DNA of 64,000 nucleotides from Nannocystis radixulma (GCF_028369095.1 NZ_JAQNDN010000024.1:629253-693252), one strand, 5' to 3'. Shown: positions 8,025-63,294, numbered from the stretch's first letter. Notes: a model not told the origin generated them from the letters alone. Translations and numbers: made by a program.

Positions 8025-8182
8025 GGTGGACGGCAGGAGAACGAACTGTGCCCACCGTTGTCAAGGCGCGCGGGTGCGCCGAATCTCGCTCGTACGGCCG
8101 GGAGTCGAGCGCAGTGAGGTGCGCCGTGGTGGCCGGGCCCCGCCGCGCGCCGTTCACGAATGACGGCAGGAGCGCGCTGCCG

Positions 8183-8719: not shown

Positions 8720-8876
8720 GCGGACGAGCGTAGCGCGTCGCCGTGGCAGGCGGGAGCCGCTCGCTGCATCGCGCGACCGCTCGGGAGTGATGGGGGTGTT
8801 CGTGCTCGCGTGAACATTTCGGCCGCGGGACCACTGCGGACCGAACGGTCCGGTGAGCGAGAGCGCGGGCGCGCGC

Positions 8877-9869: not shown

Positions 9870-9891
9870 CGCCCACACCTCCGATCCGAGG

Positions 9892-11796: not shown

Positions 11797-12012
11797 CGAT
11801 CGTCGAGGGGCGGACGGGGCGGCGAACAGGCGCTCGCCGATCCGTCGTCCCCAAATCGTCCGACCGCACGGCCTGGGGGCGTCGATTCGTTCGGGCAGCG
11901 CGGCATGGGCGACTCCGGCGACAGCGCCGTGCCGTTGCTGTTCGCCCTGCCCTGATTCGTCGTCCGGCCGATCGTTCTGTCGTCCGGTAGGTCGACTCCG
12001 CTCAACCGGGGC

Positions 12013-23926: not shown

Positions 23927-24483
23927 ATCGCTCGTCTCACGCTGCACTTCTCCGAGGCGGGTCCGCAGCGGACGTTCTGAGAGCGCTGCTGTTTTCGCGG
24001 AATCCGCGCGCCCGAGCTGCCGCGGGCGGCCAAGTGGCGCGTGCCAAGCCGTGTTGGCGCTCAGAAGCGGGCCTTGGCGACCCGCGCCCCGGCCGAGCCA
24101 CCGGGAGGCGCCCGAGCTGCCGACGCGCCTGGCGACCCCCGCGTGCAAGGTCGCCCCAAGCGCGACGTCAGCACGCCGAACTCGATCCGTCTGTTGACGT
24201 TGCCCCCTCGGGCGCCTCGTCGAGCAGCTCGCCGAGCAGCCGGTCGACCTGGTCCCCGCTGAGCGGCCGCAGCTCGAGCTCCGTCTACCGGGATCGATGC
24301 GACGGCGCCGACGCGAGCGTCCAGACTTCTTGTGCTCAGGTGTTTCCTGGCCAGCCAAGCGGTCTCCTAGCCTAGCCTGGTAGGCCGCTGACGGCGAAAT
24401 CCGGCTCCCCTGTAATAGCCTAGCCAGACTGTTCAACGATAATTTCATTGACTTCTCTCGATGCGTCGAATACTGACAATTCA

Positions 24484-25833
24484 ATGTCAGAAATTCGGTT
24501 GGCTCTCTCGTTGGTTATTCTCTCATCCTGCGCAGGTGACGATGGTGGTGCCGGCGGGCCCGCTCTCCAGCTTATGAGTGAACAAACGCTGGCCGCCGAG
24601 ATGGGGCCGATCGACGACACCCTACGCTCGATTGTCGAGTTGCGCACTGAATTCCGTGTCGCGCCTGAAGTCGAGTGGACCGAGGACGCGGAACAGGAAG
24701 CGTGGGAACTTCGGTACCGATTCGCGCGGGCGCTCCAGGGGGCCATGGGGGCCGAGGCGTTGCTGGCTCGCAGCGGCGATTCGCAGGTCGTCACGGTCGA
24801 ATATCTCGGTAAGGGGGTCATCGGCGACGGTCCGAATGGTGAGCCGCCGGGGCCGAGCGGCGACGAGCCCCCCGCTGTTCCGGAGTACATGAAGGATGGC
24901 GCTCGGTGGCTGGACGGCTTCTCTGTGGAGACGCAAAACGAATACCGGGTCCGCATTCCGAAGGATTTCAGCCGTGCGGTCGGCGAGCAGGCCGTCCTGG
25001 ATGGGATTCATCTCGGCAGCGGCGACATCGACGCCGAGGACGTGCCGCGCGGCTTTTCGGACGGAACGGACGATCGGCAATTTTTCGGTTTACTCAACAC
25101 CGCGCACACGAATTCCAACTACAAGAGGCTCGTATCGATCAATAGTAGTTCGAACGGCGGCTGCTCAGGAGCGCTCATCGGGCCGAAGCACACGGTGACC
25201 GCTGCGCATTGCGTGTGGAAGTGGACTGCAGAGAATGCCGGGACTTGGAGCGTCGGCACTCTGCGCGCCGGCCGAAACGGCACCGATTGGCATGCTGATG
25301 CCACTATTTCGAGTGATCAATGGTACTGGGTCCCGTCCCAATACCGTGCCTCGTTCTGGTATCCGGGGGCGGGCGTGTGGGACATCGGTGTGTTCGTCAC
25401 GCACAGCGGGAGGATGGGAGAGGACCCGGACATCAACGGGTGGTTCGGATGGTGGTGGACCTCGAGCAACACCAGCTTCGAGACCTATCTCAAGAATCTT
25501 CGCGGATATCCCGCCTGCGGCTTGTCTAACCCTCCCCAGAATTGCCAGCAAAACCATCTCTACGGCGACACGACCTCCTGCAGCGTGGGGGGTTACAGCA
25601 CCACCTACACGGATTCTGCGGGGGTCCCGTTGCGGTTCAAACACTCGTGTGACGCGAGCGCAGGAATGAGCGGCAGTGCGATCTACGAGTTCAACGGCGC
25701 GCAAAACGCGGTGTTTGTGATCGGCGTCCATACCGGGTACGACGGTACAGTCGGTGTGATCCCGTACTACGCGACCAGGATTACCCGCGACTACAGCGAC
25801 GACATCAGCTGGTTGAGAACCACCTACCCTTGA
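24484..25833 (+). CDS. secreted trypsin-fold (S1 family) serine protease, lipoprotein-type signal
   Basis: MSEIRLALSLVILSSCAG signal; TAAHC (His) and GMSGSAIY (Ser) catalytic motifs; AT-rich region immediately upstream. Confidence 0.8.
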   Translation: MSEIRLALSLVILSSCAGDDGGAGGPALQLMSEQTLAAEMGPIDDTLRSIVELRTEFRVAPEVEWTEDAEQEAWELRYRFARALQGAMGAEALLARSGDSQVVTVEYLGKGVIGDGPNGEPPGPSGDEPPAVPEYMKDGARWLDGFSVETQNEYRVRIPKDFSRAVGEQAVLDGIHLGSGDIDAEDVPRGFSDGTDDRQFFGLLNTAHTNSNYKRLVSINSSSNGGCSGALIGPKHTVTAAHCVWKWTAENAGTWSVGTLRAGRNGTDWHADATISSDQWYWVPSQYRASFWYPGAGVWDIGVFVTHSGRMGEDPDINGWFGWWWTSSNTSFETYLKNLRGYPACGLSNPPQNCQQNHLYGDTTSCSVGGYSTTYTDSAGVPLRFKHSCDASAGMSGSAIYEFNGAQNAVFVIGVHTGYDGTVGVIPYYATRITRDYSDDISWLRTTYP

Positions 25834-26993
25834 TGCCCGCTCTGCTCTACCCCGCGCACCCCTGTACGGGCGTCGCTCTCCGGGTTGTGGCCCTCGCCAC
25901 GGCCCGGGGCGTGTTCGTCTCTCTCTTGCTTGCCTGCGGTAATGACACGTCGGGAGAGACTTCGGCGATGAGCACGACTTCGATCGGCGCGTCCGAGTCC
26001 GGAGCCGGCACGACCGACGACCCCACCAGCGGCGGGCCGGGCGTGCAGGTCGTGGTCCCTGACGCGGTGTCGCTCTGTGCAAACTCCCATATCTCTACGA
26101 CTGTACCCGAGGCGTTCGCGCTCAACGCTCGGCTCGAGATCCCTGCCGGGAAGTCCGGCCTCGGACCCCGGGTAGAATGGCCTGTGGACGAAGACGGGAT
26201 GCCGCAAGGCCCTCCGCCGTCTGGCGAAGATATCGAGTTGAACGCAACCATCCAATTCCCGAACACGGACGCAGGGATGCACGCGTTCGGCGGAGGAAAC
26301 TGGGCGGCCATTCAGGACCGCGACGTTTGGGGAGGTGACGCACCCGGGCTCGTCTGGATGTCGCCCGCGAAATTCCCGACGAGCGAGAGTGCGCCACTCC
26401 GGGCGGCTTTTTTGCGCGTCGGGCTCGCTGGCGTCCCGGACGCGCAAGAGTCGTTGTATCTGCGGCCTCCATCCACGCCGGAGGAGGCGCATGGCTTCAA
26501 CGTCATCGTCGGCTGCGACAACTCGGCGGTGGACGCGTGCTCGATCGGTACCGTGCCGCAGCCTCAGGGGATCGGCATCGAGCTTGTTCCGTGCGATTTT
26601 GGGGAGTTGCCGGTCCGTCGATGGACGGTGGAGACCGCGAGGGGCACCTTCAGATTCGAGATCCAGAACCTCGAGCGTCTGTTTAGTTTCCATCAAGGAC
26701 TGGCGCTCCTGCTCCGCGTCGAGGGAGAACTCGACGGCCAGCCATTCGTGCAAGACGACGTGATGTCGTTGACCATGGCTCGGGGCAGTTTCAGTCCTAC
26801 TGGGCTGGGCGACAGCCTCGGCGTGTTGTTCCGGGAACCCCTCGCCGGCACGTGCGGCGTCCTCGTCGAGAACCTCGACTTCGAGCCGCAGAGTCCCTTG
26901 GACCCGCTCGGTCGGATCGCCTACGAAATCACCTGTGAGCGCGAGCGAGGTGCGGCGTTCGAGGTCTACGGCTACGCCGAAGACTGGCTCTGA
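25830..26993 (+). CDS. lipoprotein co-transcribed with the S1 protease (candidate inhibitor/partner)
   Basis: ATG overlaps the protease stop codon (ATGA coupling). Lipobox LLLACGND; 387 aa protein-like. Confidence 0.65.
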   Translation: MMPALLYPAHPCTGVALRVVALATARGVFVSLLLACGNDTSGETSAMSTTSIGASESGAGTTDDPTSGGPGVQVVVPDAVSLCANSHISTTVPEAFALNARLEIPAGKSGLGPRVEWPVDEDGMPQGPPPSGEDIELNATIQFPNTDAGMHAFGGGNWAAIQDRDVWGGDAPGLVWMSPAKFPTSESAPLRAAFLRVGLAGVPDAQESLYLRPPSTPEEAHGFNVIVGCDNSAVDACSIGTVPQPQGIGIELVPCDFGELPVRRWTVETARGTFRFEIQNLERLFSFHQGLALLLRVEGELDGQPFVQDDVMSLTMARGSFSPTGLGDSLGVLFREPLAGTCGVLVENLDFEPQSPLDPLGRIAYEITCERERGAAFEVYGYAEDWL

Positions 26994-27100
26994 CAGCAAT
27001 GTGCGCCGATGATCGCCGTGTAGCGTAAGTCCTTTGCCACCAAGACCGACCCAGCCAGGGCGTCCCTCGAAGCTCTTGCGCAGGCGACTGACACCCCGCG

Positions 27101-27487
27101 TCACGCGCCTGGAGAACCGCCTGCGCGAGAGCACCGGACCGCACGAGTCGAGCGTGTCGTGCCTGACCGGGAGACGAAGAGGGCTGAGGCGCTCGCGGCA
27201 GCGGCATCGAACAATTGACGTGCGTCGCTCCGACGCGAGATCCCGCGGCTCAAGCCGTCGATCGTCTCGGCCCGCTGCGGGGGGTGGGCGGTGAGCATGT
27301 TGAGGATGGGATCGAGCTGCTGGAGGCGCTCGATCAGCGCCTTGATCCCTGCTTCGTTGTTCGGCGATGCCCACGCCTGGTGAGCTCGCTTCGTCGGTTG
27401 CGAGGGCTGGCTCGGGTCGACGGCCTTGACGGCGACGTCCAGCCAGTCGTTTCCGACGTCGATTCCGACGAAGTACACGCTCTTCAT
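27101..27487 (-). mobile_element. IS110-family transposase N-terminal fragment (truncated, inactive)
   Basis: MKSVYFVGIDVGNDWLDVAV...NNEAGIKALIERLQQLDPI matches the IS110 N-terminal module and then degenerates. No intact transposase ORF. Confidence 0.55.
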
Positions 27488-27951
27488 GTGTCGTTCTTCC
27501 CTTCCGTGGCTGTGCTGCTCGTTGCTTCGCTTGACCTACCGCCCACCCTTGCAGGATTCGAGCTGACTGACGCTCTTGCAGTTGTTCGGGCTCTTGAGGT
27601 CAAACTCGGACGACGGGGCCTCGTCTCACGCGCGGGCTCGGCGCCCCAGGGACCCACGGCCTCTCGATGTCCTCCAGGAAGCGCGGGCCGAGTCCGCGTC
27701 GACATCCAGAAAATCAAGATCGAACTCCGGGGGACCACACTCGCTAACGGGCTCGAAGCCCCAGGGACCCTCGGCCTCCCCGAAGTTCTGGAGGCTTCGC
27801 CCTGTCGGGCTCACCTCGGCGGGGAACATACAAGGGACCCGCGCCGCCGCTCCGTGCCCGCCGTCACCGGCTCTCCACAGCCCCGCGTCTTCGGTCGCGC
27901 GCTTGTCTCAGGCGCGCGCGCGCGAGGCTCACCCGCGCCAACGTCAGGCTG

Positions 27952-28815
27952 CTAGATCGGGCAGCCGGGCTCGCCCATGTCGCAGCAGAGGCACGCCGAG
28001 GTGCCCATGTCTTCGCCGCAGAAGCCGTGGTCGTAGAGGGTCATCATGTCGTCGCCGACCTCGGTGCACTGGACGAAGCAGTCGAACTCGGCCAGCTTGC
28101 CGTAGATGCAGGTGTTGAGGTTGGTCTGGTCGGCGCAGCTGGGGGCGTCGGCGTTGTCGCACGGGGTGCCGGGGCCGTCGCCGCACACGAACTCGACGTT
28201 CTTGCCGTCGTCGACGCAGCCGTAGGCGAAGTCGTAGCCGTCGAAGTTGCAGCTGTCCTTGGCGAGGTTGGGCTCGAGCACCCACTCGGTGCCCTCGCAG
28301 CGGTAGACCTCGCTGCCCTCGGGGCCGCAGGCTTCGGTCATCGTGCACCAGAACTGGCCGTTGCTGCAGGCGTCGGGCGGCGGCTGGGCGCCCATGCACT
28401 CGGGGCCGCCGGTGGTGGTGCTCTCACCCTCGGTGGTCTCGGCGGTGGTGCTCGCGGTGACCTCGGTCGTGCTGGTGCTCGAGGTCTCCGGGAGGCTGGT
28501 GGCCTCGGTCTCGGTGGTCGGCTCGGTGGTGGTCGGCGTGGTCGTCGAGGTCGGCTCGACGGTCGTGGTGCCGACGCTCGGCGAGGAGGTGGTCTCGTCG
28601 ATCGGACAGCACGACAGGTCGTTGGGGTCGTCGGTGCAGTACTCGAAGCCTTCGTCGCAGTAGCAGGTCTCGCCGTCGAGGTAGGAGTTCGGGTCGTCGC
28701 ACACGAACTCGCTGCTGGTGTCGGATTCGCTGGTGGTTTCGCCGCCCGTGATGATGCAGCCGGGCACGAGCGCCAGAGCGACGAAGAGCGCGATTTTGCG
28801 AGGTAAGCGAGCCAT
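27952..28815 (-). CDS. Cys-rich secreted lipoprotein with Thr-rich linker
   Basis: MARLPRKIALFVALALVPGC lipobox; ETT/TST linker; many CxxC / CxDG motifs. Confidence 0.6.
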   Translation of the reverse strand: MARLPRKIALFVALALVPGCIITGGETTSESDTSSEFVCDDPNSYLDGETCYCDEGFEYCTDDPNDLSCCPIDETTSSPSVGTTTVEPTSTTTPTTTEPTTETEATSLPETSSTSTTEVTASTTAETTEGESTTTGGPECMGAQPPPDACSNGQFWCTMTEACGPEGSEVYRCEGTEWVLEPNLAKDSCNFDGYDFAYGCVDDGKNVEFVCGDGPGTPCDNADAPSCADQTNLNTCIYGKLAEFDCFVQCTEVGDDMMTLYDHGFCGEDMGTSACLCCDMGEPGCPI

Positions 28816-54134: not shown

Positions 54135-54731
54135 TCATGCGAAGAGCAGGGCCATCATGTGGTCGTCGACGAGCGCGCCGTCGTCGCGGAGGACGAACGC
54201 GCGGCGGGTGCCCTCGAGTCGGAAGCCGAGCGCGTGGTACAGGGCGAGGGCGCGGTGGTTGTCGGCGCGGGTGTAGAGCTCGACGCGGAGGACGCGGCCG
54301 CCGTCGCGGTCGCGGTGGTCGCGGGCCCAGGCGAGGAGATGGGTGAGCAGCGCGCGCCCGAGGCCGCGGCTCTGAGCGCTCGGATGGACGCCCATGCCGA
54401 GGACGGCGACGTGGTGGAGCATGCGGAACGGCAGGCGCACCAGCGACGCTTCGCCCAGCAATTCGCCGTCGTCCTGTTCGGCGACGAGGGCGAAGGCGGC
54501 CCCGGAACTGGCGCGCTTCTCGGCGTACGCGGCGAGGTCGGGCGGGAGCTCGTCGGGGTACTTCACGACGCCGTCGCGGGCGCGCACGATGGCCTGCTCG
54601 AGCGCGTACAGGCCGGCGTCGTCGCCCTCCGCGGCGGCCCGGAGGGTGCAGCGACGACCGTCGGAGAGATGCACGGTGACGGGCGCGAAGGACATGGAGG
54701 ACATGGAGGCGTGGTCGAGCGAGGCTGTCAA
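54135..54731 (-). CDS. GNAT-family N-acetyltransferase (last gene of the putative RiPP-like operon)
   Basis: Motifs HHVAVLGMGVHPSAQSRGLGRALL and YHALGF. A TTG start overlaps the upstream stop; alternative ATGs lie 9 and 11 codons downstream. Confidence 0.7.
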   Translation of the reverse strand: MTASLDHASMSSMSFAPVTVHLSDGRRCTLRAAAEGDDAGLYALEQAIVRARDGVVKYPDELPPDLAAYAEKRASSGAAFALVAEQDDGELLGEASLVRLPFRMLHHVAVLGMGVHPSAQSRGLGRALLTHLLAWARDHRDRDGGRVLRVELYTRADNHRALALYHALGFRLEGTRRAFVLRDDGALVDDHMMALLFA

Positions 54732-55852
54732 GGGCGGGCGATCGGGCGCAGCGAGGCGGCGCTCAGGGCGAGGTGCGGAGCGCCCTGGCTGACGGGCAGG
54801 TTGTTCTGACCGTCCTTGTTGCAGCCGAGCGCGGAGTCGAAGAAGGTGAGGTCGTCGGCGATGCCGGCGAGCCGGGCGAGCGTGGCGAGCTTGTCACCCA
54901 CGAGGTCGAAGCGGCGCAGCACCTCGCCGGTCGGTCGGCCGTCGCGGATCCGCACGCCGTACGCGGGGCGGAGGACGAACTCGCGGCCGACCGAGCCGCC
55001 GCCGATCACGCCGCGGCAATAGATGGCGTCGGCCTGGTCCGCGAGCAGAGCCGCCGGCGACTGCCCGCCGGGCTCGACGTAGGTCACGGCCATGCGCGGG
55101 ATGGCGGGCGCGTCGTCGACCCGCCGACCGTGACCCGAGCTGTCGACGCCGAGCTGCCGGGCGCTGGCGCGGCTGTGCAGCAGGCCGCACCAGACGCCGT
55201 CCCGCACGAGCGGGATGGCGTGCGCCGGGACGCCCTCGTCGTCGACGTCATAGCCGCCGACGCGACCCGGGAGGCGCGGATCGTCGACCACGTGGAGCGG
55301 CAGCTCGGTCCAGCGATGCCCGAGCTGGATCCCCGCCGGGGCCATGTACGCGGCGTAGTTGTCGGCCTCGGAGCTGTGGCCGATGCACTCGTGCACCAGC
55401 GTGGACGCGAGCCATGGATCGAGGACCACGGGGCAGCGCGTGACCTCGGCGAGCGGGACGCCGTCGACGGCGGCGCGCACCTCGCCAGCGATCACGTCGC
55501 CCGCGAGCGTGGCGTGGAGCTGGCGAGCCAGCGCGTCGGTGCCGGCCTCGGGGACGCAGGTGTGCCAGACGACGGGGATCCGCGAGCGCGGCCCGGCGAC
55601 GACGAGCCGGATCACGAGAGCGGTGTGCGCGACGCATGCGTCGCCGCGGAGCCGTGCGCGCGACTCGAGCGAGAGCTCGTGGGCGACGACCTCCGGGCCG
55701 AGCGTGGCGGCGAGCGCGACCTGCAGCGCCTCGGCAGCAGCGGCGAGCTCGGACCAGGCGAGCAGCCCGGGGTGCTCGCACGTCGCTCCGAACCACCGCG
55801 GCGCGGCGCCGGCGGTCAGCAGGACGCTGCGGTGGAGACGGACGTCGCTCAT
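54728..55852 (-). CDS. TldD/PmbA-family metallopeptidase
   Basis: Start at MSDVRLHRSVLL (ATGA overlap with the upstream gene). Motif VLDPWLASTLVHECIGHSSEADNY typical of the TldD/PmbA C-terminal domain. Confidence 0.7.
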   Translation of the reverse strand: MSDVRLHRSVLLTAGAAPRWFGATCEHPGLLAWSELAAAAEALQVALAATLGPEVVAHELSLESRARLRGDACVAHTALVIRLVVAGPRSRIPVVWHTCVPEAGTDALARQLHATLAGDVIAGEVRAAVDGVPLAEVTRCPVVLDPWLASTLVHECIGHSSEADNYAAYMAPAGIQLGHRWTELPLHVVDDPRLPGRVGGYDVDDEGVPAHAIPLVRDGVWCGLLHSRASARQLGVDSSGHGRRVDDAPAIPRMAVTYVEPGGQSPAALLADQADAIYCRGVIGGGSVGREFVLRPAYGVRIRDGRPTGEVLRRFDLVGDKLATLARLAGIADDLTFFDSALGCNKDGQNNLPVSQGAPHLALSAASLRPIARP

Positions 55853-57978
55853 GTCGCGAGGGCCCGTTCGACGCCGGCGAGCAGGGCCTCTCCGGCGGGC
55901 GTGAGGCGGGCGTGCTGCCGCAGGGTGGACATCGCGGCGGCGACCCGGTCCTCGATCTTTCGCAGATAGCGGTCCATCGGCGCCTCGGCGAGCGCGGGGA
56001 CGCCGGCCGCGAGCATGCGGCGGGTGATCTGAATGTCGTGGAGGAACGAGTACACGCCGTGGACGAGCGCCGTCAGCGGCCGCGGGATGGCGACGAAGGG
56101 CGAGGGGTGGAGCTCGTCGTCGGGGTTGGTGACGACCGGGTAGACGTCGAGCAGCGTGCTGAGCTTGTTGTGCGCGGCCTCGTGGACGAGCGTCTGCGCG
56201 GTCATGTAGTCCGGACGAGCGCTGGCGGTGACGAGGCCGCGAAAGCCGGCGACGCTGGCGTTGTGCGGGCGCAGGCCGTGCGAGCGTACGGGCAGCAGGA
56301 GAGCGACGCTGTCCTCGAGCTCGGCGCGAGCGGCGGGCCAGTGGTGCGCGACGTGCTGCAGGCCCTGGGTCATCGCTACTCGCCACGCCGCCAGCGCGGC
56401 GTCGTCGATGTCGAGGAACAGCGGGCTGACGCGGCCCTCGACGTCCTCGCGCGCCGGGAAGAACTCGGTGTACCAGCGGCTGGTCCGCAGCAGGAGCACG
56501 CGGGAGCCGGGCGCCGTCGCCAGCGGTACGACCTCCCAGCCGTCGCCCCTGGCCGGTTCACGCAGCGCTGCGCGAGGGATCGCCAGCGCCTCGCCAAGGC
56601 GGAGCTCGTCGCCCGCGGCCACGGCGGTGACGACTTCGGGCAGCGGCTCGCGGGTCCGCAGCGCGCATGCCAGCGACAGCAGGTGCAGCTCGGTCGCATC
56701 CGTGGGGGCGAGCAAGACGGGCTCGCCCGCGGGGAGCGCGTCGTGGACGAACAACGCCGGCAGCAGCGCGACGCCGAGGTGACGCACGAGCAGCTCGAGC
56801 TGCGGCGGGAAGGCGAACTCGAGCGCCTCGGCCATGCGCCAGATCCAGGAGGTGAGCTCGGGCCGGAGCAGGAGGTCGCGCAGGACGTCGGGGGCGAGCC
56901 GCTGCACGCCGGCGACCAAGGTGGCCAGCGAACGCCGGTGGGCCTCGTCGTGCAGCTTCGCGTGGGCGCGGCCGCAGAGGACGAGCAGGCGCTTGAGGTA
57001 CGGGCGCCAGGTGTAGTCGCGTAGCAACCGGTGGGCCGCGCCGTCGGGCTCGGGGAGCGCGAGCCGGCTCGGGTCGAGCGGCGGCAGCGGGGCCTGCAGC
57101 AGCGTCCGCACGCGGGCCATGTCGATCGGCAGCGCGTCCGCGGACGAGGCATCGCGCGGCGGAGTGATGCCGGCGGCCTGCCGCAAGCGGGCGACCCGCG
57201 CCTGCCACCACCGCCGCGCCAGCGTGCGCGCGACCTCGGGGTCGCGCAGGGCCTCGCCGAGGTCGGACAGGACCTGGGCGAGCACGTCCGGCAGCGCCGC
57301 CTCGGCGGCCGCGAGATCGACGGGGACCGCGGGCAGCGGCGACCAGAACCGCTCGTCCTCCGAGAGCAGGGCCGCGAGCGTCGGCACGATCTCGCCGTGC
57401 GCCGACTCGGCGTCGACGAGCAGCGAGACGCTCGTCGACGGGCCGCGCGACAGCCCCCAGTGCGGCCAGAAGATCGGGATGTACAGCAGATCGCCCGGCT
57501 CGAGCGTGTACTCGATCGCGCCCGCAGGCATGGGCACCGGGCCGAGCTCCGGGTGCTTCAACATGCGCAGGCGCTGCTGATCGCGCGGGATGATGTCGGG
57601 CGGGTGAAGTCGCCACAGCTTGGCGCCGGACTGCTGGAGGATGAAGTTGTCGCTGTAATCGTAGTGGCTGCCGATGCTGTGCCCGTCCCGCATCGTCGAG
57701 CCGTCGAAGCCGACGCTTGCGCTGCCGAACAGGGACACGAGCCGCTGGGCGAGCGCCCGCAGCCGCGGCACCACGGCGTCGATGCGCTGGGCGAACACGA
57801 CGTCGTCGCCCGAGCGCTTGACGCGGTCGGGGTCGAGCCGGGACAGCCGCGCGATGGCGTCGTCGAGCTCGTCCTCCGTGACGCCGGGCGTGAGCAGGCG
57901 CGAGGCGCCGCCGCGGATGAACAGCGGGCGGCGGCGCCAGTGCGTGGCGAAGAATTCGTCGGGCAGCCAGGTGCTCAC
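55849..57978 (-). CDS. fusion protein: JmjC/cupin-4 oxygenase domain + C-terminal HExxH-motif domain
   Basis: GTG start overlapping the upstream stop (GTGA). N-terminus GHSIGSHYDYSDNFILQQSGAKLWRL ... LEPGDLLYIPIFWPHWG (HxD...H 2-oxoglutarate/Fe cupin). C-terminus LVHEAAHNKLSTLLD (HExxH). Confidence 0.7.
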   Translation of the reverse strand: MSTWLPDEFFATHWRRRPLFIRGGASRLLTPGVTEDELDDAIARLSRLDPDRVKRSGDDVVFAQRIDAVVPRLRALAQRLVSLFGSASVGFDGSTMRDGHSIGSHYDYSDNFILQQSGAKLWRLHPPDIIPRDQQRLRMLKHPELGPVPMPAGAIEYTLEPGDLLYIPIFWPHWGLSRGPSTSVSLLVDAESAHGEIVPTLAALLSEDERFWSPLPAVPVDLAAAEAALPDVLAQVLSDLGEALRDPEVARTLARRWWQARVARLRQAAGITPPRDASSADALPIDMARVRTLLQAPLPPLDPSRLALPEPDGAAHRLLRDYTWRPYLKRLLVLCGRAHAKLHDEAHRRSLATLVAGVQRLAPDVLRDLLLRPELTSWIWRMAEALEFAFPPQLELLVRHLGVALLPALFVHDALPAGEPVLLAPTDATELHLLSLACALRTREPLPEVVTAVAAGDELRLGEALAIPRAALREPARGDGWEVVPLATAPGSRVLLLRTSRWYTEFFPAREDVEGRVSPLFLDIDDAALAAWRVAMTQGLQHVAHHWPAARAELEDSVALLLPVRSHGLRPHNASVAGFRGLVTASARPDYMTAQTLVHEAAHNKLSTLLDVYPVVTNPDDELHPSPFVAIPRPLTALVHGVYSFLHDIQITRRMLAAGVPALAEAPMDRYLRKIEDRVAAAMSTLRQHARLTPAGEALLAGVERALAT

Positions 57979-59213
57979 AGTCCTGCGTCCTTTCGTGTCG
58001 CCTGCAATCGCTCGAGCCGCGCGCGGACCTCGTCGAGCTCGCGGGCGCGGCCGAGGCGGGCCGCGGCGATGCTGGCGAGCTGGTACGGCTCGGCCCGCAG
58101 CGGGATCCGCTCGAGGCAGCGCAGCGCGGCGGCCAGGCCGGCCGCGAAGTCGCCGCGCCGGCACTCGGCGAGGGCGCGCAGGGAGAGGCTGTGGGCCTGC
58201 ATGGTGTCGATGAGGTCGCCCTCGGCGCGAGCGAACCACTCGGCCGCCGCGCCCGGCTCGCGCCGCGCGAGGTGGCGAAGGCCGAGCTCGTAGGCCGGCC
58301 AGGTTGCGCGGTCGCCGAGCCTGCGCGCCTCGGCGTGGGCCTCCGCGGCCTCGCCCAGCCGATCGGCGCGGGCGCACAACACGGCGCACAGGGCCATCCC
58401 GGGCCCGCCCAGGGGGTCCAGCTCGCTGGCGGTGAGCTCGGCGAGCTCGGCGTGCGACGCCGGCGCTGCGCGAGCGACGACGGCGAGGCTGCGCGCGGCC
58501 TGCTGCGGCCGCGGGGTCGAGGGGGCGAACGCGAAGCCCATCGCCGCGGCCAGCCGGGCGCCGAGCGGCCGCAGGTGCTCGGGCATGAAGCCGCTGGCGA
58601 TCGAATGGGTCATCGCCGGCGGGTCGTCGAGCAGGCCGGCGGCGGCCAGCTCGGCGGCGACGTCGGCTGGCTCATGGGTCAGGTCGGGACTGCCGTCGTA
58701 AAAGAAGTCGAGGTCGACGTCGAGCCGGGCGCCGCGCAACCCGAGCCGCGACAACCTGCGCAGCGTGGTCGCCTCGACCCGCAACCCGCCGACGCGCGCG
58801 CGGGCGGCGACGTCGTCGGCGACGAAGCTGCCGAGCACCTCGTGCCCGTGGCCGGGCAGCAGCGACAGGGCCGACCACAGCACCTCCGCGAGCTGGGCCG
58901 CGCTCCGCGGCCGCGGCTCCGGCAGGACCCACACCACGCGCTCGATCAGCCCGAGGTCGGCGGCGGCGTAGAGGAAGCTGTCGAGGCCGTAGGCGAACCG
59001 GTCGTCGTCGCGGAACGGGAGATCGCGGTGGAGCCGGTCGAGACCGCCGCCGTGGGCGCCGTCGCGGACGCGCGCGAGCTGGTCGGCGGCGATCCGCTTG
59101 AGGTCGAGGTGATGATCGAGGACGACCACGCACTCGCGCGACCAGCCCTGGCGATGCCAGTGCGCGAGCACCTCGCCGTGCTCCTCGAAGGCGCGGACCA
59201 GTCCCCGCGTCAC
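57975..59213 (-). CDS. hypothetical protein with helical C-terminal half (operon member)
   Basis: 412 aa; N-terminus AHWHRQGWSRECVVVLDHHLD; 4-nt overlaps at both ends indicate coupling. Confidence 0.55.
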   Translation of the reverse strand: MTRGLVRAFEEHGEVLAHWHRQGWSRECVVVLDHHLDLKRIAADQLARVRDGAHGGGLDRLHRDLPFRDDDRFAYGLDSFLYAAADLGLIERVVWVLPEPRPRSAAQLAEVLWSALSLLPGHGHEVLGSFVADDVAARARVGGLRVEATTLRRLSRLGLRGARLDVDLDFFYDGSPDLTHEPADVAAELAAAGLLDDPPAMTHSIASGFMPEHLRPLGARLAAAMGFAFAPSTPRPQQAARSLAVVARAAPASHAELAELTASELDPLGGPGMALCAVLCARADRLGEAAEAHAEARRLGDRATWPAYELGLRHLARREPGAAAEWFARAEGDLIDTMQAHSLSLRALAECRRGDFAAGLAAALRCLERIPLRAEPYQLASIAAARLGRARELDEVRARLERLQATRKDAGL

Positions 59214-60010
59214 GCGATCACCCCCAGACGCGCGAGGCCCTCGCCGAGCGCCGCGAGGCTTTCGACAGTGACCATCATGCCCTGTCCCGCGAGCGCGGCG
59301 ACCAGGACGTCGGGCCGCATCCGCCCGTGTTCCAGCAGCGCCGCGCTGACCGGCGTGGCGGGGCCGCGGACGAAGCGCGCGGGCGTGGCGGCGTAGAGGA
59401 ACAGCGCCGCGCCGGACGGATCCGGAGCGACCGGGCCCTTCGTCAAGGTGCGGACGAACTCGAGCGGATAGCGCTGCACCGCGTAGTGGGCGACGCCGTT
59501 GTCGCGGATCAGCGCGGTGCGCACGGCGAAGCTCGGGTCCCGGTTGAGCACGAGGATCGAGAGGAGCCCGGTGAGGAACTCGTGGGTCAGCAGATCGACG
59601 GCGTGCGGTCCGGCGGCCCGCAGCGCGTCGTCACCGCGCAGGAACTCGAAGAACGCCTCCTCGACCGAGATCCCGCGCGGGCCGTACGGCACCTGCCGGC
59701 TGTCGGCGTACTGCGGCGAGGCGACGAAGCGCTCGACCAGCGCGGCCGCGCCGTGACCGGCGCGCTCCAGCTGCGCGAACAGATCGGGGAAGGTGCTGCG
59801 CAGGCCGCCGTCGTACTCGACGTTGCCGCGCAACAGGTCGCGCCCGATCGCACCGCTGATGGCGACCAGCTCGTCCGGATCGATGGTGCGCAGGTGGGCC
59901 TGCGCCTCGGGCTCGAGCCCGAGGGATTCGAGGCGGCCGGCGAGGAACTGGTCGCGCGCGCGGCGATCGTGGAGCAGCCGGTAGAGCGCGGTCTGTAACG
60001 TCTCAGGCAT
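59210..60010 (-). CDS. DUF2063-like partner protein of the MNIO (MbnC/TglI-type)
   Basis: 266 aa directly downstream of, and overlapping by 8 nt, the DUF692 gene, the canonical position of MNIO partner subunits. Assigned mainly from synteny and size. Confidence 0.5.
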   Translation of the reverse strand: MPETLQTALYRLLHDRRARDQFLAGRLESLGLEPEAQAHLRTIDPDELVAISGAIGRDLLRGNVEYDGGLRSTFPDLFAQLERAGHGAAALVERFVASPQYADSRQVPYGPRGISVEEAFFEFLRGDDALRAAGPHAVDLLTHEFLTGLLSILVLNRDPSFAVRTALIRDNGVAHYAVQRYPLEFVRTLTKGPVAPDPSGAALFLYAATPARFVRGPATPVSAALLEHGRMRPDVLVAALAGQGMMVTVESLAALGEGLARLGVIA

Positions 60011-60962
60011 GCGCCTCCTCGCCGAGCCAGGCGGCGGCCATGGCCGCGAGCCGCTCGAAGTTGGCGACCGACTTGGGCACCAGCTCGCCGTCCTCGAAGT
60101 AGCGCGGATCTTCGTAGGTGATCGCGCGGAGGTGAGGGCAGCGGGGCAGCAGCCAGGCGAGCAGCTCGAGCTGCTCGTCGAGCAGGACGCCGTGGTGAAG
60201 GTCGCGGAACTTGCCGCCGGAGATCTGGCAGCCGGACAGGTGAATCTCGTGACAGGCGAGCAGCGGCAGGCGCTCGAGCGCCTCGAAGCGGCGCGGGCCC
60301 ACGCGGCCCTGCGACCACTGGTAGCTGAGGAGGTGGCCGACGTCGAGCGTGACCGGTGAGCCCGTCTCGTCGGCGACGACGCGGAAGAACTCGAAGGCGT
60401 CCATCGCCCCGATGGTGATCGTCGCGCCCTCGGTGAAGCCGGGGAACTCGACGCACACCGGCGCGGCCAGGCGCGACTGCCAGCCGCGGACGTTGCGGAT
60501 GCACGCGGCCAGCCCCTCGTCGGTCAAGAACGGCGGCAACGGGTACGGCAGCGATTTGCCGGCGATCGACCACAGCCCGAGGTCCTCGACGATCCACGCG
60601 AAGCCGTAGCGCTCGACGAGCGCGTTGGTGAACGCGGCCACCGCGTCGAACTCGATCGGATCGAGGGTCGCCATGTTGAGCAGGGTGTGGTGCAGCGCGC
60701 GGTGACCGATCCGCGGCGCCGCGGCGAACAGGGCGTCGTAGGCGGCGAAGTAGTCGCCGGCGCGCAGGCGGTTGCGATTGCCCGGCTGGAACGCGAACAC
60801 GAGGTAATTGAAGCGCTCCTGGTAGCGCGCCAGGAAGTTGGCGACCCGTGGGGTGACGGTGTCGCCGCGCTCGGGATCACGGGTGAAGCCGATCCGCTCG
60901 CCCCACGGCAGATCCATCCCGACCCCGAGGCCGAGCCGCGGCGTCGTCGGTCGTCGCGTCAT
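60003..60962 (-). CDS. DUF692-family multinuclear non-heme iron oxidative enzyme (MNIO, MbnB/TglH-like)
   Basis: Start at MTRRPTTPRLGLGVGMDLPWG (ATGA overlap with the rSAM stop). Motifs LGLGVG, LDVGHLLSY, LLACHEIHLSGCQ resemble the DUF692 TIM-barrel family. Confidence 0.65.
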   Translation of the reverse strand: MTRRPTTPRLGLGVGMDLPWGERIGFTRDPERGDTVTPRVANFLARYQERFNYLVFAFQPGNRNRLRAGDYFAAYDALFAAAPRIGHRALHHTLLNMATLDPIEFDAVAAFTNALVERYGFAWIVEDLGLWSIAGKSLPYPLPPFLTDEGLAACIRNVRGWQSRLAAPVCVEFPGFTEGATITIGAMDAFEFFRVVADETGSPVTLDVGHLLSYQWSQGRVGPRRFEALERLPLLACHEIHLSGCQISGGKFRDLHHGVLLDEQLELLAWLLPRCPHLRAITYEDPRYFEDGELVPKSVANFERLAAMAAAWLGEEAHA

Positions 60963-62914
60963 GCGGACCTCCGGGCCCGCACCGGCGTGCCCGCGCCGGT
61001 CGCGAGCAGTCGCGTGAGCACGTGGGCGGCCTCGTCGCCGTCGGCCCGCAGCAGCTCGCCGTCGTGCTGGATGGCGGGCGGCAAGCGATAGATCGTCTGC
61101 CACAGCAAGTTGGCGAGGAACGACGCGGCCGCGCCGTCACGCCAGGTGGCGCGCACGACCCGGACCCACGGGTGCAACTGGAGCGCGTACACGGGCTCCG
61201 CGGGCGCCGGCGGCCCGCGACGCTCGGGCGGGACGTCGTCGTTCTTGTGGGGGTGGACGTTGTGATGGATGGCGAGGAAGCGCCGCTGCATCGCCTCGAA
61301 GGGCGGGGCGCCGCGCGCCTCGAAGCGGAGGCCGACGCGACCGAGGCCGTAGCTGAGCAATTCGTTGCCCTGCCAGCGCTCGCGGTCGGGGATGACGACG
61401 CCGAATTCCTCGGGGCGCTGGGCGAGCGGGGTGCCGGGCTCGCAGGTGAGCATCTGCATGACGTCGATGGCGATCTTGCCGGCGTTGGCGGCGAGGAACG
61501 CCTCGGAGGCGGCGACCTCCTCGGCGGTCTCGTCGAGGATCCCGCCCATCACCGACAGCCGCAGCTCGATGCCGACGGCGTGCAGGTTGTCGACGATCGG
61601 CTGGTAGTCGGCGGCGTCGACGCCCTTGTCCAGCCGATCGAGGAGGCGCTGCGAATTGGTTTCGTAGCCGACCGCCATCTGGACGCAGCCGAGGGCGCGC
61701 AGCTCACGGCAGACCTCGAGGTCGCGGAGCAGGCGCTCGAAGCGGCAGCGGACGCTGAACTCGATGGCGACGCCGCGGCGACGGAGCAGGCGCATGGCCC
61801 GACGCACGACTGGCAAGTTTGTCATCTCGTCGACGAAGTTGATGCGGCGGACGCCGTACGTGCGGACCAGGTGCTCGCATTCGTCGGCGATCTGGCGCGG
61901 CGACTTCTGCTGATAGCCGACGCGGCGCGAGCGGGCGCCGTACGAACAAAAGGCGCAGCGGCCCCAGAAGCAGCCGATGCCGGTGACGAGCGGGAGCTGG
62001 ACCGCGTCCATGACGTAGCGCTGCCACGGCAGATCGGAGAAGTCGGGCGGGGGCAACGCGGCGATCGGCGGCGGCGGATCGTCCCGCGACGGCGCGCGGC
62101 GGTCGAGCCACACCACGGAGGGCACGTCGCTCCACGCGGCGGCGCCCGCGGCTGCGCGCGCGAGCGCGGCGAGGGTCGCCTCGCCGGCGCCGGTCGCCAG
62201 CGCGTCGACGACCCCGGCGATCGCCGGGACGCGGGAGAGTGCGTCGTGACGCAGCATGATCTGCGGGCCCCCGAGCACGATGACGGCGTCGGGGCAGCGC
62301 GCGCGGATCCGCCGCGCCAACCACAGCGCCGGCCCGATCTGGCTGTAGAACGCGACCGAGATGCCGACGATCGCCGGGGTCGACGGCGCGAGCGCGTCGT
62401 CCAGCAGCGCCGCGAGGGCGCGCGCGGCGAGGTCGTCCGCGTCCGGCTCGTCGCCGGCGGTGAACCGGGCGGCGAGCTGGGACAACGAGGTCGACGAGAA
62501 CTTCAGCGCCGATCGCTCGAGCAGCAGATCGATCGCCTGGCCGGCGAGTCGCAGCGCCGACCGACTGTCGATCGCCGCCGCGGCCTTGTCGAACACGCGG
62601 GCGCGCAGCGAGTCGCAGATCGACAGCAGGTAGCGCGCCATCGCCGAGCGATACGCCCGCGCGAGCGGCTGCGGGTCCGCCTCGGCGGCGAGCTCCGGCC
62701 CGAGGTAGGCGCGCAGCGCCGCAGGCGCGAGCAGGGCGTGGCACAGCTCGATGTTGAGGTCGCGCGGTCGCACCGCGACGCCCTCGCGCCGCAGGTACGC
62801 GGTCAGGGCCGGCAGGCTGAGGTACGGGAACAGCCGCGCCTCGGTGGCCGGGGGGAACAGCAAGAGCACGTCGGGCGGGCTGACACTCGCGCGCATGTCG
62901 ATGGTGGGTGGCAT
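60959..62914 (-). CDS. B12-binding-domain radical SAM enzyme
   Basis: Start at MPPTIDMRASV. Rossmann-like B12 region IVGISVAFYSQIGPALWLARRIRARCPDAVIVLGGPQI. Radical SAM cluster motif CFWGRCAFCSY. Confidence 0.85.
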   Translation of the reverse strand: MPPTIDMRASVSPPDVLLLFPPATEARLFPYLSLPALTAYLRREGVAVRPRDLNIELCHALLAPAALRAYLGPELAAEADPQPLARAYRSAMARYLLSICDSLRARVFDKAAAAIDSRSALRLAGQAIDLLLERSALKFSSTSLSQLAARFTAGDEPDADDLAARALAALLDDALAPSTPAIVGISVAFYSQIGPALWLARRIRARCPDAVIVLGGPQIMLRHDALSRVPAIAGVVDALATGAGEATLAALARAAAGAAAWSDVPSVVWLDRRAPSRDDPPPPIAALPPPDFSDLPWQRYVMDAVQLPLVTGIGCFWGRCAFCSYGARSRRVGYQQKSPRQIADECEHLVRTYGVRRINFVDEMTNLPVVRRAMRLLRRRGVAIEFSVRCRFERLLRDLEVCRELRALGCVQMAVGYETNSQRLLDRLDKGVDAADYQPIVDNLHAVGIELRLSVMGGILDETAEEVAASEAFLAANAGKIAIDVMQMLTCEPGTPLAQRPEEFGVVIPDRERWQGNELLSYGLGRVGLRFEARGAPPFEAMQRRFLAIHHNVHPHKNDDVPPERRGPPAPAEPVYALQLHPWVRVVRATWRDGAAASFLANLLWQTIYRLPPAIQHDGELLRADGDEAAHVLTRLLATGAGTPVRARRSA

Positions 62915-62982: not shown

Positions 62983-63294
62983 TCACTTGGTGAACAGCTT
63001 CGAGTGGGCGATGACGTGACGGGAGACCTGCTCGATCGGGTTGCTCTCCCCCGCCTCGTCGAGGATCCGCTGCTGCGCGGTCTTCTCGTCGATGCCTTGC
63101 TGCTTGGCCAGGAGCACCGAGGCCTCCTTGAGGACGGCGAAGGTCCGCTCGTCGAGCTCGTTCAGCGGCTGCACGACGGCGAAGCGGAACGCGTGGAAGG
63201 CGTTGCCGACCTTCAGCTCGTTCGATTCGATCACGTCGAGCTGCTCGAGCTCCGCCAGCTGATTTCCATCCTGCATGCTTGATTCGTATGCCAT
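62983..63294 (-). CDS. small acidic protein (103 aa), first gene of operon; candidate precursor or recognition partner
   Basis: AGGAGGA 5 nt upstream of the ATG; GC3-rich codons; no Cys; 68 nt upstream of the rSAM gene. Confidence 0.6.
   Translation of the reverse strand: MAYESSMQDGNQLAELEQLDVIESNELKVGNAFHAFRFAVVQPLNELDERTFAVLKEASVLLAKQQGIDEKTAQQRILDEAGESNPIEQVSRHVIAHSKLFTK

What the first reader, a model, noticed from the sequence alone, without database searches (positions are those of the whole stretch)
55849..57978. Unusual fusion of a JmjC-type cupin oxygenase with an HExxH-motif domain
The N-terminal half carries the HxD...H facial triad in a JmjC/cupin-4 context (GSHYDYSDNF ... IPIFWPHWG). 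The C-terminal half carries HEAAHNKL. HExxH-motif domains have been described as 2-oxoglutarate-dependent peptide hydroxylases in rSAM-associated clusters. Two putative oxygenase modules fused in one polypeptide inside a coupled operon suggests sequential oxidations of one substrate.
Basis: partly seen in the sequence, partly recalled or inferred. Interest (0 to 1): 0.6.

Follow-up and report, generated by a model that had tools for sequence, protein, structure and literature searches.

The report
Fused BipG–BipH biphenomycin double hydroxylase
This 709-residue gene joins two different iron/2-oxoglutarate peptide hydroxylases that are separate neighbouring genes (BipG and BipH) in the known biphenomycin antibiotic pathway, and it sits in a biphenomycin-type gene cluster of a Nannocystis-like myxobacterium, so it is a variant of a known system, not a new kind of enzyme.

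Summary
Window 55849..57978 (- strand) is one 709-aa ORF whose start overlaps the upstream stop and whose stop overlaps the next start.

- **N-terminal part (residues 1 to about 270):** a ROX/YcfD-type JmjC oxygenase with an intact H105-x-D107...H173 triad. Evidence is Pfam JmjC_2 at E 1.3e-15, and an AF2 model of pLDDT 87 whose Foldseek top hit is YcfD at 9e-14.
- **C-terminal part (residues about 283 to 709):** a full-length αKG-HExxH peptide β-hydroxylase. It scores 83.6 bits on TIGR04267 (cutoff 40). Its only significant PDB fold matches are ChlH and SjiH, with no zincin protease.
- **Operon:** FHAFRF precursor, B12-rSAM, MNIO, partner, arginase-like protein, this gene, TldD, GNAT. That is a biphenomycin-type RiPP cluster.
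- **Characterised Streptomyces clusters:** the JmjC Orn γ-hydroxylase (BipG/BpmG, 271/288 aa) and the αKG-HExxH hydroxylase (BipH/BpmH, 349/351 aa) are separate adjacent genes in the same order.
- **Recurrence:** at least 25 clusters (at 50% identity) keep both sites intact, across Myxococcota, Thermoactinomycetaceae, Cyanobacteria and Actinomycetes. At least 32 more keep the JmjC site but have a degenerate HExxH domain.

I found no paper describing the fusion.

The parts
55849..57978 (-). Whole gene: 709-aa JmjC + αKG-HExxH fusion (a BipG-BipH fusion)
   Evidence: Single ORF. GTGA start overlap and ATGA stop overlap. 97% identical to a 709-aa Nannocystis sp. SCPEA4 protein.
57169..57978 (-). 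N-terminal JmjC (ROX/YcfD-type) 2OG/Fe oxygenase domain, residues 1 to about 270. Triad codons: H105 = 57664..57666, D107 = 57658..57660, H173 = 57460..57462. K120 is at the position of the 2OG-binding Arg of YcfD.
   Evidence: Pfam JmjC_2 E 1.3e-15. Profile against PDB: YcfD 3.8e-21. AF2 pLDDT 87.4. Foldseek 4csw 9e-14. Triad invariant in 35 homologues.
57133..57183 (-). Variable, low-confidence linker (about residues 266-282) joining the two enzymes end to end
   Evidence: Gappy, non-conserved alignment columns. pLDDT below 50 for residues 258-280. Stand-alone JmjC proteins end, and stand-alone HExxH proteins begin, at these profile positions.
55852..57132 (-). C-terminal full-length αKG-HExxH peptide hydroxylase domain, residues about 283-709. 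The HExxH motif H599-E600-A-A-H603 is at 56170..56184.
   Evidence: TIGR04267 83.6 bits against cutoff 40. Profile against PDB: SjiH-type 22nu 2.9e-13 over 350 residues, ChlH 8s5f 5.5e-13. Foldseek 22ob 1.5e-8 and 8s5f 3.8e-8, nothing else significant.
62983..63294 (-). Precursor peptide (103 aa, or 97 aa from the second Met) with the NAFHAFRF core and a 65-aa follower
   Evidence: Sequence. The FHAFRF motif defines biphenomycin-type precursors. Identical in Nannocystis sp. SCPEA4. Homologous precursors found in 8 related loci: L001-L003, L005-L007, L009 and L011.
60959..62914 (-). B12-binding radical SAM enzyme (BipD/PbsB-like biaryl cross-linker). The start is either 62914 or 62896.
   Evidence: Radical_SAM E 2.3e-12 with a weak B12-binding hit. 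TIGR03975 E 3.6e-31. Syntenic in all related loci.
60003..60962 (-). MNIO (DUF692; BipE/PbsC-like Phe ortho-hydroxylase)
   Evidence: PF05114 E 3.4e-13. 50-60% identical to the syntenic gene in related loci.
59210..60010 (-). MNIO partner protein (BipF/PbsD-like)
   Evidence: No family hit. Assigned by conserved position and 30-45% identity across loci.
57975..59213 (-). 412-aa arginase-like protein with a helical-repeat C-terminus (BipC/PbsE-like, Arg to Orn)
   Evidence: Only a sub-threshold UPF0489 hit, E 0.066. Syntenic homologues at E 1e-27 to 1e-109. Function taken from the literature on BipC/PbsE.
54728..55852 (-). TldD-type metalloprotease (BipI/PbsP-like leader/follower trimming)
   Evidence: PmbA_TldD_3rd E 2.9e-37. 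ATGA overlap with the fusion stop.
54135..54731 (-). GNAT acetyltransferase at the end of the operon (role unknown; tailoring or self-protection)
   Evidence: Acetyltransf_1 E 6.3e-17. Present in Nannocystis SCPEA4 and replaced by an MFS gene in Sorangium.

Best explanation
The gene encodes a bifunctional tailoring enzyme of a biphenomycin-type RiPP pathway. It is an end-to-end fusion of the pathway's two Fe(II)/2-oxoglutarate hydroxylases.

The proposed pathway runs in four steps:
1. The MNIO plus its partner convert the two Phe of the FRF core to ortho-Tyr.
2. The arginase-like protein converts the central Arg to Orn, and the B12-rSAM enzyme makes the biaryl bond.
3. The N-terminal JmjC domain (BipG-like) hydroxylates the Orn side chain at Cγ. 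The C-terminal αKG-HExxH domain (BipH-like) hydroxylates Cβ of the C-terminal ortho-Tyr.
4. The TldD-type protease trims leader and follower.

Shown here:
- the domain identities, folds and intact metal-binding motifs;
- the cluster composition and the precursor motif;
- the fusion junction coinciding with the termini of stand-alone homologues;
- recurrence of the fusion.

Taken from the literature: the activities of BipG, MNIO, arginase, rSAM and TldD.

Inferred:
- the regiochemistry of both domains in this organism;
- BipH's β-hydroxylation. The literature itself infers this from presence or absence of the gene in biphenomycin A versus B producers.
- a possible substrate-docking role for the HExxH-type domain toward the JmjC domain.
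For: - **JmjC half.** Pfam E 1.3e-15. The closest solved relatives are the protein hydroxylases YcfD, YxbC, NO66 and MINA53. A confident model (pLDDT 87.4) has YcfD-like enzymes as top fold hits at 9e-14. H105, D107 and H173 are invariant and K120 nearly invariant.
- **HExxH half.** TIGR04267 is above its cutoff. Full-length homology to solved αKG-HExxH oxygenases. Those are the only significant fold matches. H599, E600 and H603 are invariant among 28 intact relatives.
- **Context.** The FHAFRF precursor, B12-rSAM, MNIO, partner, arginase-like protein and TldD lie in one overlapping operon. The same gene set occurs in 10 related loci.
- **Literature.** BipG/BpmG/PbsQ hydroxylate Orn of the FRF core. 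BipH/BpmH are assigned the β-OH of biphenomycin A. G and H are separate adjacent genes of 816 and 1050 bp.
- **Junction.** Stand-alone JmjC proteins cover profile positions about 1-270. Stand-alone HExxH proteins start at about 281-295.
- **Recurrence.** Twenty-five intact fusions are among the top 154 representatives, including Sorangium, Thermoactinomyces and Pleurocapsa.
Against: - No biochemical data exist for any fused enzyme.
- I found no reported activity data for BipH/BpmH itself, so the β-hydroxylation target is second-hand inference.
- I could not obtain the characterised BipG and BipH sequences, so there is no direct identity value or tree placing the window's halves as their orthologues. 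The link is by family, synteny and precursor motif.
- The arginase-like neighbour has no significant family hit.
- αKG-HExxH enzymes can do other chemistry, such as oxidative and hydrolytic backbone cleavage by PflC/PosC. This precursor also has an unusual 65-aa follower.
- Many relatives keep the domain but have lost HExxH, so part of the domain's role may be non-catalytic.
Confidence: 0.75

Rival explanations
1. The C-terminal HExxH-type domain is mainly a non-catalytic docking or scaffold module that presents the precursor to the JmjC domain. The enzyme would then perform only the Orn hydroxylation.
For: At least 32 representative clusters keep the JmjC triad and the N-terminal subdomain of the HExxH-type fold but have lost HExxH or the whole catalytic part. 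Examples are Salinithrix, a Thermoactinomycetaceae MAG and three Streptomyces loci. Two of the Streptomyces loci then carry an extra stand-alone intact HExxH gene.
Against: In the window, and in its relatives at 97%, 56%, 54% and 35% identity, H599, E600, H603 and other family-invariant residues (R580, S626, H640) are all retained. The stand-alone 271-aa BipG works in vitro without such a domain.
Confidence: 0.12
2. The HExxH domain acts as a peptide-bond-cleaving enzyme that removes the long follower (or the leader), either as a zincin-like hydrolase or by PflC-type oxidative α-hydroxylation. It would not be a β-hydroxylase.
For: HExxH is the zincin signature. [quoted passage not shown] The window precursor has Ala directly after FRF and a 65-aa follower that must be removed.
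Against: There is no significant fold or family match to any peptidase. A dedicated TldD-type protease is translationally coupled downstream, and its homologue BipI trims both ends. The residue after FRF is not conserved among lineages with intact fusions: R, S, N or A.
Confidence: 0.08
3. The two domains oxidise residues different from those in biphenomycin, for example Arg instead of Orn, the His of FHAFRF, or follower residues. This would give a product that differs from biphenomycin A.
For: The closest solved JmjC relatives hydroxylate Arg or His in proteins. ChlH hydroxylates His and Asp. Identity to Streptomyces-type enzymes is only about 35-39%.
Against: The arginase-like gene, the FRF core and the JmjC gene co-occur here as in the characterised clusters. 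The literature reports that clusters lacking the Arg also lack the arginase and the JmjC homologue.
Confidence: 0.1
4. The 'fusion' is an assembly or frameshift artefact that joins two adjacent genes.
For: The two genes are adjacent and in the same order in the characterised clusters.
Against: The same continuous ORF is present in independent assemblies from at least four phyla and in dozens of metagenomic contigs.
Confidence: 0.01

Closest known systems
BipG/BpmG (and PbsQ): JmjC/cupin Orn γ-hydroxylase of the biphenomycin pathway (PMC12707348, PMC12257519)
   Same: Same Pfam family. Same position in the same type of cluster (FHAFRF precursor, MNIO, B12-rSAM, arginase, TldD). Intact HxD...H triad. 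About 270-aa catalytic unit.
   Different: BipG/BpmG are stand-alone proteins of 271/288 aa. Here the domain is covalently followed by the next enzyme of the pathway.
BipH/BpmH: αKG-HExxH-type peptide β-hydroxylase assigned to the β-OH of biphenomycin A
   Same: Same NCBIfam family (TIGR04267). Same gene order, immediately after the JmjC enzyme and before TldD. Intact HExxH.
   Different: BipH/BpmH are stand-alone proteins of 349/351 aa. The window's domain is about 427 aa, like the 400-460-aa stand-alone relatives seen in other loci, and it is fused to the JmjC domain.
ChlH domain of ChlBH and SjiH (PDB 8s5f, 22ob/22nu): structurally characterised αKG-HExxH oxygenases fused to radical SAM cyclophane synthases
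   Same: Same fold (Foldseek E about 1e-8, TM about 0.6-0.66 normalised to the target) and same HExxH motif. They are also natural fusions of an HExxH oxygenase to another RiPP-modifying metalloenzyme.
   Different: The fusion partner there is an N-terminal radical SAM domain in triceptide clusters. Here it is a second 2OG oxygenase (JmjC) in an MNIO/B12-rSAM cluster. Sequence identity is only about 16-18%.
YcfD/RoxA, YxbC, NO66, MINA53: ROX-type JmjC protein hydroxylases
   Same: Closest solved relatives of the N-half by sequence (E 4e-21) and by fold (E 9e-14). Shared triad, and a basic residue at the 2OG-binding position.
   Different: Those enzymes act on ribosomal proteins and carry a C-terminal winged-helix domain. 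That domain is absent here, and the αKG-HExxH enzyme follows the helical region in its place.

Membership tests
JmjC / cupin-4 (ROX-type) Fe(II)/2OG oxygenases | Double-stranded β-helix (JmjC) fold | tested here: met
   Pfam JmjC_2 57.5 bits against cutoff 22. AF2 N-half pLDDT 87.4. Foldseek top hits YcfD, YxbC, NO66 and MINA53 at E 1e-13 to 1e-10.
JmjC / cupin-4 (ROX-type) Fe(II)/2OG oxygenases | HxD/E...H iron-binding facial triad | tested here: met
   H105, D107 and H173 are invariant in 35 fusion homologues and 33 stand-alone homologues. They align to the YcfD motif.
JmjC / cupin-4 (ROX-type) Fe(II)/2OG oxygenases | Basic residue binding the 2OG C5-carboxylate | tested here: met
   K120 (at least 90% conserved) aligns with the second Arg of GRRRW in YcfD. 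That this Arg binds 2OG is from my memory of the YcfD structures and was not checked here.
JmjC / cupin-4 (ROX-type) Fe(II)/2OG oxygenases | Fe(II)- and 2OG-dependent hydroxylation activity | not testable with these tools
   Needs enzyme assays.
αKG-HExxH peptide β-hydroxylases (TIGR04267 / IPR026337) | Match to the family model above the curated cutoff | tested here: met
   83.6 bits against cutoff 40, E 1.7e-23, residues 538-702.
αKG-HExxH peptide β-hydroxylases (TIGR04267 / IPR026337) | Intact HExxH motif | tested here: met
   H599-E-A-A-H603. Invariant in 28 intact relatives.
αKG-HExxH peptide β-hydroxylases (TIGR04267 / IPR026337) | ChlH-type fold distinct from zincin proteases | tested here: met
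   The C-half of the model has pLDDT about 75-95. The only Foldseek PDB hits at E<=1e-3 are SjiH 22ob (1.5e-8) and ChlH 8s5f (3.8e-8, TM 0.64-0.66 normalised to the target). A profile hit to 22nu spans about 350 residues.
αKG-HExxH peptide β-hydroxylases (TIGR04267 / IPR026337) | αKG/Fe-dependent β-hydroxylation of a peptide residue | not testable with these tools
   Needs reconstitution. I found no published data for BipH/BpmH either.
Biphenomycin-type RiPP cluster (bip/bpm/pbs) | Precursor with a conserved FHAFRF core | tested here: met
   NAFHAFRF lies in the ORF at 62983..63294. The motif definition is in PMC12257519.
Biphenomycin-type RiPP cluster (bip/bpm/pbs) | MNIO plus partner, B12-rSAM and TldD-type protease encoded together | tested here: met
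   The same set occurs in 10 related loci.
Biphenomycin-type RiPP cluster (bip/bpm/pbs) | Peptide arginase (BipC/PbsE) | tested here: inconclusive
   The 412-aa protein has only a UPF0489 hit at E 0.066 and no PDB relative. It is a conserved syntenic gene, but no comparison to the characterised sequences was possible.
Biphenomycin-type RiPP cluster (bip/bpm/pbs) | JmjC and HExxH hydroxylases as separate polypeptides (as in the characterised clusters) | tested here: not met
   A single 709-aa ORF here, against bipG at 816 bp plus bipH at 1050 bp. This is the point of difference, not a disqualifier for the cluster type.
Biphenomycin-type RiPP cluster (bip/bpm/pbs) | Product is a biaryl-linked oTyr-(OH)Orn-oTyr macrocycle | not testable with these tools
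   Needs isolation or heterologous expression.
Classical zincin metalloproteases | Zincin fold and peptidase family membership around HExxH | tested here: not met
   No peptidase family in Pfam or NCBIfam. No zincin among the significant fold hits.

The most novel reading that the evidence does not exclude
The HExxH-type domain may be an obligatory substrate-docking partner of BipG-like JmjC domains. That would explain why it is retained in dozens of lineages even after its catalytic motif has decayed. In lineages such as Nannocystis, where the motif is intact, the enzyme would hold the cross-linked peptide once and pass it between two distinct Fe/2OG sites. In addition, or alternatively, the Nannocystis HExxH domain could remove the unusual 65-residue follower oxidatively at the FRF|A junction, as PflC does, giving a C-terminally amidated biphenomycin analogue.
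Probability: 0.1. Interest if true: 0.6.

Novelty: new variant of a known kind. Interest (0 to 1): 0.35.

Why it matters
Biphenomycins are potent antibiotics against Gram-positive bacteria, and their pathway was only solved in 2025. The αKG-HExxH step (BipH) is still assigned without published activity data.

A natural single-polypeptide BipG-BipH enzyme matters in three ways:
- It adds independent genomic support that the two hydroxylases act on the same intermediate.
- It offers a compact two-step tailoring catalyst for engineering analogues.
- Its many catalytically decayed relatives point to a possible structural role of the HExxH-type domain that has not been discussed in the papers I could search.

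The finding also flags myxobacteria (Nannocystis, Sorangium) as likely producers of biphenomycin-like compounds with atypical precursors. It does not reveal a new enzyme class or mechanism.

Tried and rejected
- **Word-indexed homologue searches.** These returned only 5-6 proteins for both the single sequence and a 35-sequence alignment. The second search was effectively wasted. As a result, the deep alignment could not be used for structure prediction.
- **Full-length AF2 model.** With 6 sequences it gave an unusable N-half (pLDDT below 50). Modelling the N-half alone fixed this.
- **Naming stand-alone representatives.** I tried to identify candidates for BipG and BipH through cluster look-up. 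None carried names, so no direct identity to the characterised enzymes was obtained.
- **The αKG-HExxH structure paper.** The Nature Chemistry 2024 paper is not held, so the αKG-binding residues of ChlH could not be checked.
- **Zincin-protease reading.** Rejected on fold and family evidence.
- **Mis-assembly.** Rejected because the fusion recurs in independent genomes.
- **Single origin of the fusion.** A neighbour-joining tree of the JmjC domains intersperses fused, degenerate and stand-alone forms. It is too weakly resolved to count fusion or fission events, so I make no claim about a single origin.
Full report
**1. Observation**

The window is about 70-75% G+C. On the minus strand, 55849..57978 is one continuous ORF of 709 codons plus stop. 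Its GTG start sits in a GTGA overlap with the stop of the upstream gene. Its TGA stop sits in an ATGA overlap with the start of the next gene.

Two family matches support them:
- Pfam JmjC_2 matches residues 95-192 (E 1.3e-15, 57.5 bits, cutoff 22).

**2. The two halves**

*N-half.*
- A single-sequence search of PDB sequences finds the ribosomal-protein hydroxylases YcfD/RoxA and the Rhodothermus homologue, then NO66, MINA53 and FIH.
- A profile of the N-half plus 32 stand-alone relatives raises this to E 3.8e-21 for YcfD and 2.7e-20 for B. subtilis YxbC.
- Modelled alone, residues 1-280 give a confident AlphaFold2 model (pLDDT 87.4, pTM 0.82).
- The best Foldseek PDB matches of that model are YcfD-like arginyl hydroxylases (9e-14), YxbC, NO66, MINA53, JMJD5 and FIH.
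- H105, D107 and H173 are invariant, and K120 is at least 90% conserved. K120 aligns with the Arg of YcfD that, from memory, binds the 2OG C5-carboxylate.

*C-half.*
- A profile of residues 281-709 plus 27 stand-alone relatives matches two solved αKG-HExxH oxygenases. These are a 440-aa chain (22nu/22ob, SjiH) over about 350 residues (E 2.9e-13) and ChlH (8s5f, E 5.5e-13).
- In the full-length AF2 model the C-half is well predicted (pLDDT about 75-95) while the N-half is poor.
- Foldseek of this model against the PDB gives only five hits at E<=1e-3. All are SjiH or the ChlH HExxH domain (E 1.5e-8 to 6e-7, TM 0.60-0.66 normalised to the target). No zincin peptidase appears.

**3. Context**

The gene is the sixth of eight co-directional genes. 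Adjacent genes from the rSAM gene through TldD overlap by 4 or 8 nt. In order they are:
1. A 103-aa ORF containing NAFHAFRF (62983..63294).
2. A B12-binding radical SAM enzyme.
3. An MNIO (PF05114).
4. A 266-aa protein with no family hit.
5. A 412-aa protein with only a sub-threshold UPF0489 hit.
6. The fusion.
7. A TldD-type peptidase.
8. A GNAT.

Two 2025 papers define exactly this gene set as the biphenomycin pathway:
- The MNIO plus partner ortho-hydroxylate both Phe of the FRF core in an FHAFRF precursor.
- An arginase converts the central Arg to Orn.
- A JmjC/cupin enzyme (BipG, BpmG, PbsQ) hydroxylates the Orn. This was shown in vivo and in vitro.
- A B12-rSAM enzyme forms the biaryl bond.
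- A TldD-type protease trims both ends.
- An αKG-HExxH enzyme (BipH/BpmH) is assigned the β-hydroxyl of the C-terminal ortho-Tyr that distinguishes biphenomycin A from B.

In those Streptomyces clusters bipG (816 bp) and bipH (1050 bp) are separate, adjacent genes in that order, followed by the TldD gene. BpmG is 288 aa and BpmH 351 aa. I found no reported activity data for BipH/BpmH. The assignment rests on presence or absence of the gene in producers.

**4. Related sequences**

Close homologues are all full-length fusions:
- Nannocystis sp. SCPEA4, 97% identity, 709 aa. The window therefore most likely comes from a Nannocystis species.
- Sorangium sp. So ce693, 56%, 720 aa.
- An SRA-derived contig, 54%.
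- Thermoactinomyces sp., 35%, 718 aa.
- A 711-aa protein at 30% identity.

An exhaustive HMMER search of 1.84 billion representatives with the fusion profile gave 5855 hits at E<=1e-3 and 141 at E<=1e-30. I aligned the top 154 to the profile and read the six metal-binding positions. The classes were:

| Class | Number |
|---|---|
| Fusions with both motifs intact | 25 |
| Fusions with an intact JmjC triad but a degenerate or truncated HExxH-type domain | 32 |
| Stand-alone JmjC proteins (about 250-340 aa) | 51 |
| Stand-alone HExxH proteins (mostly about 350-460 aa, plus some shorter, probably fragmentary ones) | 36 |

This ranking favours two-domain hits, so the proportions are not population frequencies.

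One intact fusion is WP_019503202.1 of the cyanobacterium Pleurocapsa sp. PCC 7319. Others come from metagenomes and are annotated 'HEXXH motif-containing protein'.

Stand-alone JmjC proteins cover profile positions about 1-270, and stand-alone HExxH proteins begin at about 281-295. In the window the intervening residues, about 266-282, are variable and of low confidence. The fusion is therefore a simple end-to-end join of two complete enzymes in the same order as the separate genes.

**5. Related loci**

Eight genome loci were found with the profile, plus the Sorangium, SRA and Nannocystis contigs. I mapped them with the window's proteins by tblastn. Ten of the eleven are clusters of the same type: B12-rSAM, MNIO, partner, arginase-like protein, JmjC(-HExxH), and usually TldD. 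The eleventh, L008, matched only the JmjC domain. An FHAFRF-type precursor was found in eight of the ten. None was found in L004 or L010.

Motif read-out:
- Both sites are intact in the window, Nannocystis SCPEA4, Sorangium, the SRA contig, T. daqus and one copy in an Actinomycetes MAG.
- The JmjC triad is intact but HExxH is lost in Salinithrix (LIETARN), a Thermoactinomycetaceae MAG (VRKLART), a second copy in the Actinomycetes MAG, and three Streptomyces loci.
- In those three Streptomyces loci the long JmjC protein still matches the N-terminal two-thirds of the HExxH-domain profile (E about 1e-15), but the catalytic part is unrecognisable.
- Two of the three then encode an extra stand-alone intact HExxH enzyme after an MFS gene. 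The third has none.

A neighbour-joining tree of the JmjC domains intersperses the architectures. It is too weak to count evolutionary events.

**6. Mechanism**

The best-supported reading is a bifunctional BipG-BipH enzyme. The JmjC domain would hydroxylate the Orn made from the central Arg of FRF. The αKG-HExxH domain would hydroxylate Cβ of the C-terminal ortho-Tyr. Both act on the same tripeptide macrocycle before TldD trimming.

- Shown here: the folds, motifs, context, junction and recurrence.
- Borrowed from the literature: the chemistry of each step.
- Inferred: the regiochemistry in this organism.

The rivals are a mainly structural role of the C-domain, a cleavage role, different target residues, and an artefact. 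They are weighed in the rival section. The structural-role idea is the only one with real support. Even so, in this gene all catalytic residues are retained across 35-97% identity.

**7. Novelty**

Full-text searches for HExxH with JmjC, and for biphenomycin, returned only papers that treat the two enzymes as separate proteins. The αKG-HExxH survey mentions fusions to radical SAM domains, and it places BpmH in its own network cluster.

Databases already annotate these proteins, but by one domain or the other. This is a new variant of a known kind: a natural fusion of two known consecutive tailoring oxygenases in a known RiPP class. Interest is moderate to low.

Three points go beyond the literature I could search:
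- the breadth of the fused architecture;
- the frequent decay of the HExxH site with retention of the domain;
- the atypical Nannocystis precursor with a 65-aa follower.

Noticed in passing
window 62983..63294 (-): The precursor carries a 65-residue, apparently helical follower after the FHAFRF core. It is 103 aa in total, or 97 aa from the second Met. The sequence is identical in Nannocystis sp. SCPEA4, whereas precursors in other lineages are 45-71 aa in total. The only family signal is a sub-threshold ANTAR hit (E 0.079). The role of the follower is unknown.
   Followed up: partly
L001:14023-14223 (Thermoactinomyces daqus): The precursor contains two tandem copies of a leader-like segment plus the GNAFHAFRF core in one 66-aa ORF. 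This suggests that two macrocycles are made from one peptide.
   Followed up: no
L005:6016-8559, L006, L007:9506-12112 (Streptomyces spp.); L002, L003; L004:9764-11989: Long BipG-like proteins keep the JmjC triad and the N-terminal subdomain of the HExxH-type fold but have lost the HExxH catalytic part. L005 and L006 add a separate intact HExxH gene after an MFS gene, and L007 has none. This suggests a retained non-catalytic role for the domain.
   Followed up: partly
window 54135..54731 (-) versus L009:13314-14720: The Nannocystis operon ends with a GNAT acetyltransferase where the Sorangium operon has an MFS transporter. The GNAT has a weak resemblance to the cyclophane-RiPP N-acetyltransferase HaaN (E 1.1e-4, far below its cutoff). 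It could act in product N-acetylation or self-protection.
   Followed up: no
L004 (Actinomycetes MAG RYN_140), 109-1380, 7933-9969, 9764-11989: One cluster encodes three members of the family: a stand-alone HExxH enzyme, an intact JmjC-HExxH fusion, and a second long JmjC protein with a decayed HExxH site.
   Followed up: no
window 24001..28000: G+C drops to 0.63-0.66 against 0.70-0.77 in the rest of the window. This could be a foreign or otherwise atypical segment. It appears unrelated to the finding.
   Followed up: no
L011:1-2879 (Nannocystis sp. SCPEA4): Upstream of the precursor in the close relative lie a C39-peptidase-domain ABC transporter and a second ABC protein. The equivalent region lies beyond the end of the window, so export or leader-cleavage genes of the cluster may be missing from view.
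   Followed up: no
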